A stretch of 8,688 nt of DNA from Escherichia coli (GCF_003334335.1 NZ_QOWQ01000068.1), one strand, 5' to 3'. Shown: positions 3,374 through 5,916, numbered from the stretch's first letter. Numbers and translations are program-made. The notes: generated by a model not told the origin, from the sequence alone.

Positions 3374-3455
3374 AGTCAGAGATAACAATCAACTAATACT
3401 GTTTTATTGATTTTTGCTTGTAATTGGCGTTCTGGTCTGATTTTAGTGGAGTAAG

Positions 3456-3842
3456 TTGATGCGTGATATTCAGATGGTTCTTGAGCGTTGGGGAGCGTGG
3501 GCGGCTAATAATCATGAAGATGTGACCTGGTCGTCCATTGCCGCCGGTTTTAAGGGATTAATTACTTCAAAAGTAAAATCTCGCCCGCAATGTTGTGACG
3601 ATGACGCGATGATCATTTGCGGGTGCATGGCCCGTCTGAAAAAGAACAACAGCGATTTGCACGATTTATTAGTAGATTATTATGTAGTCGGTATGACATT
3701 CATGTCACTGGCAGGTAAGCATTGCTGCTCTGATGGTTATATCGGGAAAAGGTTACAGAAGGCTGAGGGTATAATTGAAGGGATGTTAATGGCATTAGAT
3801 ATCCGGTTAGAGATGGATATCGTTGTTAATAACTCTAATTAA
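3456..3842 (+). CDS. quuD: Q-like late-gene antiterminator (127-128 aa). There are tandem ATG codons at 3456 and 3459.
   Basis: The translation [25 protein letters not shown]... contains the Cys cluster [12 protein letters not shown], which suggests a zinc-binding site. It sits in the canonical position between the nin region and the late/lysis genes, and it matches DLP12 QuuD. A GGAG Shine-Dalgarno element lies ~9 nt upstream. Confidence 0.85.
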
Positions 3843-3865
3843 TATGCCAATTGTTTACTAAAAAT

Positions 3866-3893
3866 TATTAAAAATGGGGCGTTGAGACGCCCC
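3866..3893 (-). terminator. Rho-independent terminator active on the minus strand. It is the probable 3' end of the nmpC and IpeX transcripts.
   Basis: A perfect 6 bp GC stem (GGGGCG/CGCCCC) with a 6 nt loop is followed, on the minus strand, by a TTTTT run. On the plus strand it is followed by CAAAAAT, which is not a U-tract. Confidence 0.6.
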
Positions 3894-3982
3894 CAAAAAT
3901 AAAGGGTAATATATAACAGAAGGTTTATATAGTTAGAAGCAAGGTTGTGCTCCTAAAGGAAGTGGCTTGAGGGAGCCACTTA

Positions 3983-4022
3983 TATGTTGGGGAGGCAAAG
4001 CCTCCCGCAACATATCTTTTAG
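3983..4022 (+). terminator. Long hairpin followed by CTTTT on the plus strand. It is a candidate tR'-like terminator for the short transcript from the Q-dependent late promoter. It also lies immediately 3' of the nmpC stop on the other strand.
   Basis: ATATGTTGGGGAGGC-AAA-GCCTCCCGCAACATAT forms a ~15 bp stem with one bulged C and a 3 nt loop, then CTTTTAG. A second 8-9 bp hairpin lies at 3960-3981 (AGTGGCT-TGAGGG-AGCCACT). Confidence 0.4.
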
Positions 4023-4030
4023 TAATCAAA

Positions 4031-5113
4031 TTAGAACTGGTAAACCATACCTACAGCAACGATATCATCGGTAGCAACGCCAGATGCTTTCGTGAAATCG
4101 CTCTTATCAATCAGGTTGATTTTGTAATCAACAAAAGTGGACATATTTTTGTTGAAGTAATAGGTTGCACCTACATCAATATATTCAACCAGGTCCTGAT
4201 CACCCCACGCACCCAAGTCTTTTCCTTTAGATTGCAGGTAAGCAACGGACGGACGCAGACCGAAGTCGAACTGATATTGTGCAACTACTTCGAAGTTTTG
4301 TGCTTTGTTGGCAATATGGTTATTACCAAAAACAGTCATGTTCTGGGTTTCAGAATAGGTGGTAGCCAGATAGATGTTGTTCGCATCATATTTCAGACCA
4401 GCTGCCCATACTTCAGCATTTTGACCAGATGCATTCAGGCTGTTGTTACCGTAGATAACCTGATTATTAGTGCGGTCAGATTTAGCATAGGTTGCACCTA
4501 CACCGAATCCTTCATACTCATAAGTAGTGGAGAAACCGAAACCATCACCATTAGCTTCAGTTACGTCAGTGCGGTCATTTTTACCCTGATACTGAGCAGC
4601 AAAGTTCAGACCATCAACCAGACCAAAGAAGTCATTGTTACGATAAGTTGCAACACCTGTGGTGCGACCAGTCATGAATACATCTGTTTGGGTCCAGGTA
4701 TCGCCACCGAATTCTGGCAGAACGTCGGTCCATGCACCAATATCGTATGCTACACCGTAGTTACGGCCATAATCGATGGAGCCGTAGTCACCGAATTTCA
4801 GGCCAGCGAAGGCAAGACGGGTTTTATCTTTGGAGGAACCTTGAGATTCAGCGCGGTTGCCTTTGAATTCATATTCCCACTGACCGAAACCAGTCAGTTG
4901 ATCGTTGATTTGGGTTTCACCTTTGAAGCCAAGACGGGCATAAGTAGTATCACCATCATCTGCATCATTAGAGGAGAAGTAGTGCTTAGCATTAACTTTC
5001 CCGTACAGATCCAGCTTGTTACTGTCTTTATTATAAATTTCAGCTGCCTGAGCAGACATCGCCATCAGTACTGATGCAGCTACAGCAGAAATTGCCACTG
5101 TTAATTTTTTCAT
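4031..5113 (-). CDS. nmpC: Outer membrane porin of the NmpC / Lc / OmpD type, from the OmpC family (361 aa precursor). It is intact here.
   Basis: The signal peptide is [23 protein letters not shown] followed by [16 protein letters not shown].... The protein ends in the aromatic C-terminal residue of a beta-barrel (...VGMVYQF). It aligns with my memory of DLP12 NmpC. The ORF-track start at 5173 adds 20 non-signal residues and is rejected; the ATG at 5111-5113 (reverse complement) follows an AAAGGG Shine-Dalgarno element. Confidence 0.95.
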
Positions 5114-5539
5114 CGTGAGCCCTTTTTTTGAACTATTATTAAAAAATGATGTCACTGCGCGATAAATATTCATCTAATCAATGTGATTATTTCAAGATGT
5201 AAGTTTTGGTTTCTCATTTGATTTGTGAAGTAGATCTCTATTTTTATCTGAACTTTTTCTATCGAATCCTATTCATGGCTCTTGGCTGAATAAAAATAAA
5301 TCTATTAGCCAATTTATATTAATGGCTGTTATTTATAAGTGCTCTATAATTTGAAGATTCAATTTAAACCAGCTAAAAATAACGCTGGAAATTATTTGTT
5401 GGTTATTTGTTGAGATTTGCTTATGTATTTGTAGTGGTGTTTTCAATACTCGGTAGCATTCTCGCAAATATCATTTAGTGGTTTACGTACGTAAAAAATT
5501 GGTTATGCTGTTAAGAGTGGTTACTTCGTCACACAGCTT

Positions 5540-5570
5540 AAACCCGCCGTCGAGCGGGTTTTTCCATTTT
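5540..5570 (+). terminator. Rho-independent terminator on the plus strand, ~130 bp upstream of the holin gene. It is a candidate ancestral phage tR', or the terminator of an unannotated rightward transcript.
   Basis: AAACCCGC-CGTCGA-GCGGGTTT is a perfect 8 bp stem with a 6 nt loop, followed by TTCCATTTTTT. On the minus strand the hairpin is followed by AAGCTG, so it works only in the plus direction. Confidence 0.6.
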
Positions 5571-5700
5571 TTGAGTCTCGATATTAGCTGATAACCCAAT
5601 ACCTGAGTTATTCACTGACTCCGAGTCTGTTACGTTTCTGCTTTTTTGCGATACGTTGTATTCCCTCAATTTACACCCGCTTTGTCTGCGAGGTGGGGTT

Positions 5701-5916
5701 ATGAAATCCATGGATAAGTTAACAACGGGTGTCGCCTATGGCACCTCAGCAGGTAGTGCCGGTTACTGGTTTTTACAGCTGCTCGATAAAGTCACGCCCT
5801 CACAGTGGGCAGCAATAGGTGTGCTGGGTAGCCTGGTATTTGGCCTGCTGACGTACCTGACAAACCTTTATTTCAAGATTAAAGAAGATAAGCGCAAGGC
5901 TGCGAGAGGTGAATAA
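5701..5916 (+). CDS. essD: Class II pinholin/antiholin of the phage 21 S21 type (71 aa). It has the dual-start motif MKSM.
   Basis: The translation [71 protein letters not shown] is near-identical to my memory of S21 (two TMDs and a basic C-terminus). A GAGGTGGGG Shine-Dalgarno element precedes the ATG at 5701. Met1 and Met4 are separated by K-S, as in holin/antiholin dual starts. The ORF-track start at 5656 is rejected. Confidence 0.9.

What the first reader, a model, noticed from the sequence alone, without database searches (positions are those of the whole stretch)
3843..4030. Dense hairpin cluster between Q and the porin gene: opposing terminators, a probable IpeX sRNA and the expected Q-dependent late promoter
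In under 190 bp there are three strong hairpins. The first (3876-3893) terminates only minus-strand transcription. The last (3983-4015 plus CTTTT) sits where a lambdoid tR' would be, ~175 bp after the Q stop. Lambdoid phages place PR', the Q-utilisation site and a short 6S-type transcript here. Independently, published work on DLP12 describes IpeX, a ~167 nt RNA from the nmpC 3' end and the nmpC-Q intergenic region that represses OmpC and OmpF. The distance from the nmpC stop to the minus-strand U-tract matches that length. So both strands may make small RNAs here: a Q-modified leader on the plus strand and a porin-regulating sRNA on the minus strand. I could not assign a convincing -35/-10 pair for PR' by eye (3843-3875 is AT-rich), so the promoter call is left open.
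Basis: partly seen in the sequence, partly recalled or inferred. Interest (0 to 1): 0.5.

Follow-up and report, generated by a model that had tools for sequence, protein, structure and literature searches.

The report
Phage porin mRNA tail (IpeX)
The hairpin cluster is the known IpeX RNA, the untranslated tail of a prophage porin gene, not the phage late promoter (which lies 1.6 kb further on); unexpectedly, the tail carries a stretch complementary to the ribosome-binding regions of the host porin genes ompC and ompF, although reviews say no such pairing exists.

Summary
The hairpins are real. Three strong ones sit at the stated coordinates, with two weaker ones between them. The 188-bp spacer is 98-99% identical to the quuD-nmpC spacer of K-12 prophage DLP12, so the IpeX call holds. 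It occurs in 2510 of 5426 complete E. coli genomes.

The RNA reads as the 3' UTR of the porin mRNA, ending at a minus-strand-only terminator (3876-3893). No promoter-like site lies upstream of it inside the porin gene.

The late-promoter idea is wrong for this spacer. QuuD is 78% identical to Q of phage 933W. The homologue of the 933W/Sp5 PR' (start mapped by dRNA-seq in Sp5) lies at 5482-5509, followed by a terminator-like hairpin at 5540-5561, just upstream of essD. The porin cassette (about 3819-5480) separates Q from its promoter.

New observation: IpeX nt 101-134 (window 3930-3897) is antisense to the ompC leader from -29 to -2, forming 26 bp at -25.3 kcal/mol. It pairs more weakly with the ompF ribosome-binding site. 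It does not pair with ompA, phoE or the phage porin's own ribosome-binding site. Two reviews state that no base pairing exists. The pairing is predicted, not shown.

The parts
3459..3842 (+). quuD, the Q-type late antiterminator (context). Its last ~7 codons belong to the porin cassette; the junction is near 3819.
   Evidence: Pfam PF06530, E 3.5e-53. 78% identical to Q of 933W over 125 aa, diverging after residue ~120. Distant match to the Q21 structure 6p18. RefSeq calls it quuD. Phages carrying other cargo match only up to window 3818.
3864..4030 (-). IpeX, the 167-nt 3' untranslated tail of the porin mRNA. IpeX nucleotide n corresponds to window position 4031-n.
   Evidence: 98-99% identical to the K-12 DLP12 quuD-nmpC spacer. 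Same sequence downstream of lc in PA-2 and in 434. Fold z -9.4. Length and origin as given in the review PMC12197685. No Rfam family matches.
3864..3893 (-). Intrinsic terminator of the porin cassette: stem 3893-3887/3882-3876, loop CUCA, then AUUUUUAAUAAU.
   Evidence: Called on the minus strand only. -13.9 kcal/mol. Natural variation falls in the loop (CTCA/TGCA/TTCA/TTCC/TTCT), and the stem is kept in 18 of 18 variants.
3897..3930 (-). Predicted anti-porin seed (IpeX nt 101-134), largely single-stranded and just 5' of the terminator. It is antisense to the ompC leader -29..-2 and to the ompF SD-AUG region.
   Evidence: Unpaired probability >0.85 for nt 122-137. Duplex energies: ompC -25.3, ompF -18.8, ompA -7.4, phoE -6.2, own porin RBS -8.6 kcal/mol. 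Shuffles reaching the observed value: 3/5000 (ompC) and 41/5000 (ompF). Full-length cofold ddG -17.2 / -13.8 versus -6 to -8.7 for controls. Plus strand 3897-3929 aligns to ompC -31..-3 at 26/29 identities. Varies less than other unpaired columns, 3/20 versus 27/56.
3982..4015 (-). Hairpin A: 15 bp with one bulged C/U, directly after the porin stop. On the plus strand it is followed by CUUUU, so it is a possible weak terminator for read-through from Q.
   Evidence: -22.6 kcal/mol (minus strand) and -22.3 (plus strand). One compensatory change at the closing pair (C-G to U-A) in E. albertii; the bulged base varies. The scan does not call it a terminator.
3960..3981 (-). Hairpin B: 8 bp with a 6-nt loop.
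   Evidence: -10.9 kcal/mol, z -5.4. The inner two pairs are lost in some variants; the outer six are kept.
3933..3956 (-). Hairpin C: 9 bp with a 6-nt loop.
   Evidence: -9.7 kcal/mol. Three pairs vary on one side only (G-U/A-U, U-A/U-G). The loop varies freely.
4031..5113 (-). Intact phage porin gene (nmpC/lc type; RefSeq labels it 'ompC'). An upstream in-frame ATG exists at 5173.
   Evidence: Pfam Porin_1, E 3.7e-153. RefSeq CDS of 360 aa. C-terminus is ...YQF-stop at 4031-4033. Its RBS, AAAGGGCUCACGAUG, is not complementary to the seed.
5482..5574 (+). The actual late promoter region: -35 TTTACG (5482-5487), 16-bp spacer, -10 TATGCT (5504-5509), predicted start about 5516, terminator-like hairpin 5540-5561 followed by TTTTTCCATTTTTT.
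   Evidence: 77-79% identical to the 933W/Sp5 region annotated as pR' and tR' at the end of Q. The Sp5 PR' start mapped by dRNA-seq fits TTTACG-16-TATCAT. It is the only plus-strand terminator call before essD. -12.0 kcal/mol. Present at the same place in K-12, 434, PA-2 and CFT073.
5701..5916 (+). essD holin, the first late gene (context).
   Evidence: RefSeq annotation of a 99.9% identical locus.

Best explanation
The spacer is the 3' end of a porin cassette (a 'moron': promoter, gene, terminator) inserted between the Q gene and its late promoter in a DLP12/PA-2-type lambdoid prophage.

Transcription from the porin promoter runs leftward through the porin gene. It continues through three stable hairpins and a mostly unstructured AU-rich stretch, then stops at the GC hairpin with its U-run at 3893-3864. 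That 167-nt tail is IpeX, the published RNA that lowers the host porins OmpC and OmpF. The terminator keeps porin transcription out of Q. The phage late promoter, its Q-loading region and its first terminator are not here; they lie at 5482-5574, in front of essD.

Inferred mechanism: the accessible stretch just upstream of the terminator (IpeX nt 101-134) base-pairs with the Shine-Dalgarno region of ompC mRNA (-29 to -2; 8 + 15 + 3 bp). It pairs more weakly with the SD-to-AUG region of ompF mRNA. This would block ribosome binding, as MicC and MicF do. The phage porin's own ribosome-binding site does not match the seed. The same transcript would therefore supply a replacement porin and silence the resident ones. 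The long ompC duplex would not need Hfq; the short ompF duplex would.

Shown here: homology, anatomy, location of PR', and the complementarity with its statistics. Inferred: that the pairing occurs in cells and causes the repression.
For: Identity:
- 98-99% identical to the K-12 DLP12 spacer.
- Identical or near-identical downstream of lc in PA-2 and in 36 phage records.
- Present in 2510 of 5426 complete E. coli genomes.

3' UTR status:
- Minus-strand terminator.
- No promoter-like site on the minus strand 4260->3990, even at a loose threshold.
- A review describes it as part of the porin transcript and processed.

Location of PR':
- QuuD is 78% identical to Q933W.
- Window 5481-5563 is homologous to the 933W/Sp5 PR' region.
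- The Sp5 transcription start was mapped experimentally and fits the conserved promoter.

Structure:
- z -9.4.
- 98.9% of cells paired across 18 variants.
- Substitutions are enriched in unpaired columns (30/76 versus 14/92, p 4e-4).

Pairing:
- Duplex energies: ompC -25.3, ompF -18.8, against -6 to -9 for ompA, phoE and the phage porin's own RBS. This is comparable to MicF-ompF at -27.4 by the same method.
- 3/5000 (ompC) and 41/5000 (ompF) dinucleotide shuffles reach the observed value.
- Of 133,711 background windows from other enterobacterial DNA, 8 reach -25.3. Six of these are IpeX's own antisense, one is an ompC-type leader and one is unrelated. OmpC-type porin leaders dominate the top of that list.
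- Leader classes separate cleanly: OmpC-type -19.5 to -22.9, OmpF-type -17.7 to -19.8, OmpD/NmpC-type and PhoE-type about -4 to -10.
- Full-length cofolding keeps hairpins A-C and the terminator, and forms the intermolecular helix: ddG -17.2 (ompC) and -13.8 (ompF) against -6.0 to -8.7 for controls.
- The seed is accessible and less variable than other unpaired columns.
- The ompC leader is at least 99% identical in 5359 of 5371 E. coli genomes.
- The order OmpC > OmpF, with OmpA unaffected, matches the published phenotype as I recall the 2006 abstract. PMC8313858 calls IpeX Hfq-independent.
Against: - Two reviews state that IpeX does not base-pair with ompC or ompF (PMC3617542) or that no complementary sequences exist (PMC10690425).
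- I could not read the original paper. Its deletion or fusion data might place the active part of IpeX elsewhere, or exclude the ompC leader site.
- The sequences are AU-rich and short. Single-test significance is about 1e-3 to 1e-4, not overwhelming.
- No interaction data were found: K-12 has an IS5 insertion in nmpC, and the CLASH supplements do not contain ipeX or nmpC.
- Covariation cannot test the structure because the family is 90-100% identical.
- The start site at 5516 and terminator function of 5540-5561 are inferred by homology. In Sp5 the homologous hairpin is apparently read through to a terminator at +258.
Confidence: 0.75

Rival explanations
1. One reading: both strands make small RNAs here. 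The plus strand carries PR', the Q-utilisation site and a short leader ending at hairpin A (as tR'). The minus strand makes IpeX.
For: Hairpin A is strong on the plus strand (-22.3 kcal/mol) and is followed by CUUUU (CUUUUU in K-12). Many lambdoid phages do place PR' directly after Q, as 933W does.
Against: There is no credible promoter in 3843-4030. The spacer has no similarity to any PR' region; its only phage matches are porin-carrying phages. The homologue of the PR' used by the closest characterised Q (78% identity) lies at 5482-5563. A promoter at this position would drive 1.1 kb of antisense porin RNA before reaching essD.
Confidence: 0.04
2. IpeX acts indirectly, as the literature holds. 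The structured tail (hairpins A-C) titrates or recruits a protein factor or RNase, and the complementarity to ompC/ompF is a coincidence of AU-rich sequence or an inert relic of a porin leader captured in inverted orientation.
For: Reviews state that there is no base pairing. The three 5' hairpins are well conserved and have no role in the pairing model. Single-test p values are only about 1e-3 to 1e-4.
Against: The complementarity hits exactly the two published targets, at their ribosome-binding sites, and spares OmpA, PhoE and the phage porin itself. The seed is accessible and sits next to a terminator, the usual layout of base-pairing sRNAs. It varies less than other unpaired positions. The two sequences share no exact 11-mer (longest runs are 10 and 9 nt), so a word-11 BLAST comparison would have missed the match. 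That could explain the earlier negative report; this is my inference.
Confidence: 0.3
3. The hairpins are mainly transcription and stability insulators between two convergent units. Hairpin A stops read-through from Q on the plus strand. The GC hairpin stops the porin transcript on the minus strand. Hairpins A-C protect the porin mRNA 3' end from exonucleases. There is no dedicated trans-acting function in this prophage.
For: Q and the porin gene are convergent. The terminator is minus-strand only. Hairpin A followed by a U4-5 run would pass the T-run criterion if the bulged stem were accepted. Morons typically carry their own terminator (general knowledge of lambdoid phage genomes).
Against: This model does not explain the published trans effect of the cloned region on OmpC/OmpF or the seed complementarity. 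It is compatible with the best explanation rather than exclusive of it.
Confidence: 0.3
4. IpeX is an independent primary transcript with its own promoter inside the 3' end of the porin gene.
For: Some databases list ipeX as a separate 167-nt gene (from memory).
Against: No -35/-10 pair on the minus strand 4260->3990, even at 8 of 12 matches. A review describes synthesis from the porin promoter followed by processing. In K-12 the gene upstream is broken by IS5.
Confidence: 0.08

Closest known systems
IpeX of E. coli K-12 cryptic prophage DLP12 and phage PA-2 (Castillo-Keller, Vuong and Misra 2006, J Bacteriol 188:576)
   Same: Same locus, same strand and same length, with 98-99% sequence identity. 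It lies directly after the nmpC/lc stop and ends at the same terminator.
   Different: Here the porin gene is intact (K-12 has IS5 after codon 346), so the RNA can be made from the porin promoter. There are four to five substitutions, none in the seed. The base-pairing mechanism proposed here contradicts what reviews report for IpeX.
MicF and MicC, chromosomal antisense sRNAs that block the ompF and ompC ribosome-binding sites
   Same: The predicted mode of action is the same: an accessible seed pairs across the SD region of a major porin mRNA, with a Rho-independent terminator at the 3' end. The duplex energy is similar to MicF-ompF by the same method (-25.3 versus -27.4).
   Different: No sequence homology beyond the shared anti-SD core AUUACC. 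IpeX is embedded in the 3' UTR of an mRNA rather than being a separate gene. It is phage-borne. One seed covers both ompC and ompF. The pairing is not experimentally shown.
3'UTR-derived regulatory RNAs (for example CpxQ, DapZ, SroC)
   Same: The regulatory RNA shares its terminator with the upstream coding gene and is probably released by processing.
   Different: The parent gene is itself a porin that replaces the repressed targets. Processing sites were not mapped here.
Lambdoid PR'-qut-tR' leader (lambda 6S RNA; StxS of Stx phages, PMC7547250)
   Same: The window does contain such a unit: a promoter and early hairpin 77-79% identical to 933W/Sp5.
   Different: It lies at 5482-5574, not in the flagged spacer. 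In Sp5 the transcript is reported to run 258 nt to a second terminator. Here only the first hairpin lies before essD.

Membership tests
IpeX (DLP12/PA-2 porin 3'UTR RNA) | Sequence identity to the K-12 DLP12 nmpC-quuD spacer | tested here: met
   Pairwise alignment with NC_000913.3 574278-574600: the 188-nt spacer differs at 4-5 positions. Same sequence class as PA-2 and 434.
IpeX (DLP12/PA-2 porin 3'UTR RNA) | Lies directly after the stop codon of a phage nmpC/lc-type porin gene, on the same strand, and ends at a Rho-independent terminator about 167 nt downstream | tested here: met
   Porin stop at 4031-4033. Terminator 3893-3876 plus U-run on the minus strand. 4030-3864 = 167 nt.
IpeX (DLP12/PA-2 porin 3'UTR RNA) | Lowers OmpC and OmpF but not OmpA when expressed | not testable with these tools
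Lambdoid late promoter unit (PR', Q-loading site, tR') within 3843-4030 | Sigma-70 promoter on the Q strand directly downstream of Q | tested here: not met
   No call in 3843-4030 at the standard threshold. At a loose threshold there are only poor candidates with 15-19-bp spacers.
Lambdoid late promoter unit (PR', Q-loading site, tR') within 3843-4030 | Homology to the PR' region used by the closest characterised Q protein | tested here: not met
   QuuD is 78% identical to Q933W. The 933W/Sp5 PR' homologue maps to 5481-5563. The spacer matches only porin-carrying phages.
Lambdoid late promoter unit (PR', Q-loading site, tR') within 3843-4030 | Intrinsic terminator on the plus strand downstream of the promoter | tested here: inconclusive
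   Hairpin A (-22.3 kcal/mol) followed by CUUUUAGU. The scan does not call it. Without a promoter upstream it cannot be tR'.
Base-pairing porin-repressing sRNA (MicF/MicC type) | Accessible seed complementary to the translation initiation region of the target mRNA, beyond chance | tested here: met
   ompC: 26 bp, -25.3 kcal/mol, 3/5000 shuffles, roughly 1e-4 per background window. ompF: -18.8, 41/5000. Seed unpaired probability >0.85 for nt 122-137. This is computational only.
Base-pairing porin-repressing sRNA (MicF/MicC type) | Regulation lost on seed mutation and restored by a compensatory target mutation | not testable with these tools
   Needs experiment. Reviews report no base pairing. 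The original paper is not held in the library.
Rfam-curated RNA family | Match to a covariance model at the gathering score | tested here: not met
   No match in the window at gathering scores. Nothing in 3700-5750 at E<=5 except a chance Trp_leader hit at 5445-5567.

The most novel reading that the evidence does not exclude
IpeX is not the pairing-independent oddity the literature describes. It would be a MicC/MicF-like antisense RNA built into the 3' UTR of a phage porin mRNA. One accessible 34-nt seed is an inverted near-copy of the ompC leader (-31..-3) and also covers the ompF SD-AUG region. A single phage transcript would then install the phage porin and shut off both resident porins by occluding their ribosome-binding sites. 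The phage porin's own ribosome-binding site has a different sequence and would escape. The long ompC duplex and the short ompF duplex would also explain why, as I recall the 2006 abstract, only the ompF effect needs Hfq.
Probability: 0.55. Interest if true: 0.6.

Novelty: already known. Interest (0 to 1): 0.45.

Why it matters
The flagged feature is a textbook-adjacent element: IpeX, described in 2006, inside a porin moron carried by nearly half of sequenced E. coli. That part of the finding is ordinary, and the late-promoter reading is a misplacement. Annotators should note that PR' of DLP12/PA-2-type prophages lies after the porin cassette, 1.6 kb from Q.

What could matter is the mechanism. 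IpeX has been cited for twenty years as a porin regulator that works without base pairing. The complementarity found here gives a specific prediction that is cheap to test, with coordinates for compensatory mutations. If correct, it would turn IpeX into a clear example of a phage mRNA that both encodes a surface-protein replacement and silences the host versions. That bears on phage receptor masking, superinfection exclusion and antibiotic permeability in the many clinical strains that carry an intact copy.

Tried and rejected
- Rfam at gathering and at permissive thresholds: no family for this RNA.
- The original IpeX paper and the two DLP12 Q/lysis-promoter papers are not in the library. Statements about their content are from memory or from reviews.
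- Covariation test on 18 distinct natural variants: one compensatory pair only, because the family is too uniform to prove structure. I used the distribution of variable columns instead.
- Search for more divergent homologues. The 80 best viral contigs carry near-identical copies. Among 80 porin loci from other species, only E. coli and E. albertii have an IpeX-like tail. The chromosomal ompD-like porins of Salmonella, Citrobacter and Enterobacter do not.
- Unrestricted RNAduplex of full-length RNAs gave meaningless end-to-end duplexes. I replaced it with windowed duplexes, opening energies, shuffles, a genomic background and full-length cofolding.
- Interaction data: the RIL-seq paper has no held supplements. 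The Hfq-CLASH supplements contain no ipeX or nmpC entries. No paper links nmpC with the 3' UTR, sRNA and ompC terms I searched.
- An independent IpeX promoter inside the porin 3' end: none found.
- Hit H221 (only the terminator part retained) turned out to be an IS5-family deletion, not an informative recombinant.
- Phage Lambda_ev087 (a Q relative with different cargo after Q): its PR' homologue was not within the 2.5 kb fetched, so I could not show that cargo between Q and PR' is general.

Full report
**Setting**

The window is the late-regulatory part of a DLP12/PA-2-type lambdoid prophage of E. coli. Its genes run: nin genes, rusA, ylcG, quuD (Q; 3459-3842, plus strand), a porin gene on the minus strand (4031-5113), then essD, rrrD, rzpD and bor. 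The stretch 3400-5300 is 99.9% identical to many E. coli chromosomes. At lower identity it is found in 4606 of 5426 complete genomes.

**Checking the observation**

On the minus-strand RNA the energies are:
- Hairpin A (3982-4015): -22.6 kcal/mol.
- Hairpin B (3960-3981): -10.9.
- Terminator (3876-3893): -13.9.
- Two further hairpins: C (3933-3956), -9.7, and a weak AU hairpin D (3910-3931), -2.1.

The spacer folds much better than shuffled sequence on both strands: z -9.4 and z -6.3, with 0 of 200 shuffles as good.

The terminator scan calls 3893->3876 followed by ATTTTTAATA on the minus strand only. On the plus strand the same stem is followed by CAAAAATAAAG.

**The IpeX assignment**

The spacer aligns to the K-12 DLP12 quuD-nmpC spacer with 4-5 differences. 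The same sequence follows lc in phage PA-2 and the porin gene in phage 434 and 34 other phage records.

From the first base after the porin stop (4030) to 3864 is 167 nt. That is the length a review quotes for IpeX. The same review describes IpeX as synthesised from the porin promoter, as part of the porin transcript, and then processed.

I find no promoter-like site on the minus strand between 4260 and 3990, even at a loose threshold.

The element occurs in 2510 of 5426 complete E. coli genomes at 90-100% identity. No feature is annotated under any of the 60 listed hits. The K-12 RefSeq record lists micF but not ipeX. Rfam has no matching family.

So the minus-strand reading is right. One correction applies: the RNA is a 3' UTR, so the absence of a primary 5' end would not refute the assignment.

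**The plus-strand reading fails**

Neither scan finds a credible promoter in 3843-4030.

QuuD belongs to Pfam Phage_antitermQ. It matches the Q21 structures only distantly but is 78% identical to Q of phage 933W.

Searching the essD-upstream region against phages showed that window 5481-5563 is 77-79% identical to the stretch that overlaps the end of Q in 933W-type Stx phages. In record Y10775.2 that stretch is annotated as putative pR' and tR'.

In the Sakai Sp5 prophage the same promoter (TTTACG, 16 bp, TATCAT) is the only plus-strand promoter call. It fits the PR' start mapped by dRNA-seq. The published spacings agree with the sequence once the 142-bp coordinate offset I inferred between the paper's coordinates and the current record is applied: a 258-nt transcript, and RNase E cleavage at GU/AUU at +173.

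The window's counterpart is TTTACG (5482-5487), a 16-bp spacer and TATGCT (5504-5509). The predicted start is near 5516. A hairpin follows at 5540-5561, then TTTTTCCATTTTTT. This is the only plus-strand terminator call before essD. The same unit sits at the same place in K-12 DLP12, 434, PA-2 and CFT073.

Q homology to 933W and to other Q relatives stops near window 3818-3819, inside the last codons of Q. Homology to the 933W PR' resumes at about 5480. So a 1.66-kb cassette lies between Q and its promoter. It holds the terminator, IpeX, the porin gene and the porin control region.

Hairpin A therefore cannot be tR'. With its CUUUU tail it could still weakly stop read-through from Q. I could not test that.

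**Structure conservation**

I collected 25 distinct natural variants from phage contigs, E. coli genomes and E. albertii. Eighteen clean ones were aligned.
- 98.9% of cells pair.
- There is one compensatory change: the closing pair of hairpin A, C-G to U-A, in E. albertii.
- There are a few one-sided changes.

The family is too uniform for a covariation test. Variable columns are, however, enriched among unpaired positions (30/76 against 14/92, p 4e-4).

Among 80 porin loci from other species, only E. coli and E. albertii carry an IpeX-like tail. It is therefore a feature of the Escherichia phage porin, not of ompD-type porins generally.

**An unexpected result**

The stretch between hairpin C and the terminator is almost invariant. 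Its 3' half is predicted to be unpaired (P >0.85 for nt 122-137).

Its complement on the plus strand, AAATAAAGGGTAATATATAACAGAAGGTTTATA (3897-3929), aligns with the E. coli ompC leader AAATAAAGG----CATATAACAGAGGGTTAATA (-31 to -3). That is 26 of 29 identities with one 4-nt gap.

As RNA, IpeX nt 101-134 forms 8 + 15 + 3 base pairs with ompC -29..-2, covering the Shine-Dalgarno sequence. The duplex energy is -25.3 kcal/mol, or -15.2 after opening costs.

With ompF the core UAUUACCCU/AGGGUAAUA, plus flanking pairs, covers -23..+10 at -18.8 kcal/mol (-10.3 net).

The controls give:
- ompA: -7.4.
- phoE: -6.2.
- The phage porin's own ribosome-binding site, AAAGGGCUCACGAUG: -8.6, about zero net.

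By the same method MicF-ompF scores -27.4.

**Significance of the complementarity**

- Dinucleotide shuffles of the seed reach the observed value in 3/5000 trials (ompC) and 41/5000 (ompF).
- Shuffles of the DNA reach the alignment score in 2/2000 trials.
- Among 133,711 background windows from 480 kb of other enterobacterial DNA (both strands), eight reach -25.3. Six are the E. albertii IpeX's own antisense, one is an ompC-type leader and one is unrelated. OmpC-type porin leaders dominate the top 40.
- Across the porin leaders in those loci the classes separate: OmpC-type -19.5 to -22.9, OmpF-type -17.7 to -19.8, OmpD/NmpC-type and PhoE-type about -4 to -10.
- Cofolding full-length IpeX with each 5' region keeps hairpins A-C and the terminator. 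The intermolecular helix forms with ddG -17.2 (ompC) and -13.8 (ompF), against -8.7, -6.0 and -7.6 for ompA, phoE and the phage porin.
- The ompC leader is at least 99% identical in 5359 of 5371 E. coli genomes.

**Relation to the literature**

[quoted passage not shown] Another says that 'no complementary sequences exist' (PMC10690425). IpeX is also called Hfq-independent.

I could not read the original paper. From memory, its abstract reports the following:
- No complementarity to the ompC untranslated region.
- Repression of OmpC and OmpF, but not OmpA.
- Hfq dependence only for ompF.

The longest exact runs shared with the ompC leader are 10 and 9 nt. A BLAST-type comparison with word size 11 would therefore return nothing. 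That may explain the negative report; this is my inference.

The predicted pattern matches those phenotypes: a strong, long duplex with ompC, a short one with ompF, and none with ompA. It remains a prediction. The original deletion data could contradict it.

**Verdict**

The late-promoter half is not supported, and the promoter is relocated to 5482-5574.

The most likely function of the spacer is as the regulatory and terminating tail of the phage porin mRNA. I put about even-to-better odds on it acting by direct antisense pairing at the ompC and ompF ribosome-binding sites.

Noticed in passing
window 5482-5574 (+): This is the real late promoter unit: TTTACG-16-TATGCT followed by a hairpin at about +25..+46 with a T-run. 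It is 77-79% identical to the 933W/Sp5 PR' region whose transcript is the Hfq-binding sRNA StxS. In Sp5 the homologous early hairpin is reported to be read through to a terminator at +258. Here no second terminator lies before essD, so the DLP12-type leader RNA would be only about 50-58 nt.
   Followed up: partly
window about 3819 and about 5480: These are the junctions of the porin cassette. The left junction falls inside Q near codon 120, so the cassette supplies Q's last residues (IVVNNSN). These replace the 24-residue tail of Q933W, which overlaps PR' in 933W.
   Followed up: partly
L168 2501-3771 and L169 2501-3765 (E. coli DLL7555, 2015C-4136CT1): These are degenerate DLP12 remnants. The porin gene and its IpeX tail (about 90% identical) survive between ybcM and yedK, while Q, PR' and the lysis genes are gone. 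This suggests the porin-plus-tail unit is retained on its own.
   Followed up: no
L001 4530-6826 (K-12), L003 2133-4429 (phage 434B), L170 2516-3841: IS5-family elements repeatedly hit this cassette. K-12 and 434B share an IS5 after porin codon 346. Strain JB2 has an ISKpn26-type element that has removed the porin gene and all of IpeX except the terminator.
   Followed up: partly
window 5113 versus 5173 (-): The porin ORF has two in-frame ATG starts. RefSeq uses 5113 (360 aa). The ORF list extends to 5173 (380 aa). The SD-like AAAGGG lies upstream of 5113.
   Followed up: no
L027, L040, L056, L065, L068, L081 (IMG/VR contigs), IpeX hairpins A and B: Several viral contigs show clustered G/C miscalls confined to the two GC-rich hairpins. 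These look like sequencing or assembly errors at strong secondary structure. I left them out of the structure counts.
   Followed up: no
window 5445-5567 (+): Weak Rfam hit to Trp_leader (20.8 bits against a gathering score of 41, E 0.39). It is almost certainly chance, driven by the terminator-like hairpin.
   Followed up: no
L005 3094-3618 (phage Lambda_ev087): A phage whose Q gene region is 88% identical at the DNA level (up to window 3818) carries a different minus-strand cargo gene (lipocalin Blc) directly after Q, again ending at a terminator-like hairpin. The position just after Q may be a general cargo slot in this Q family.
   Followed up: no
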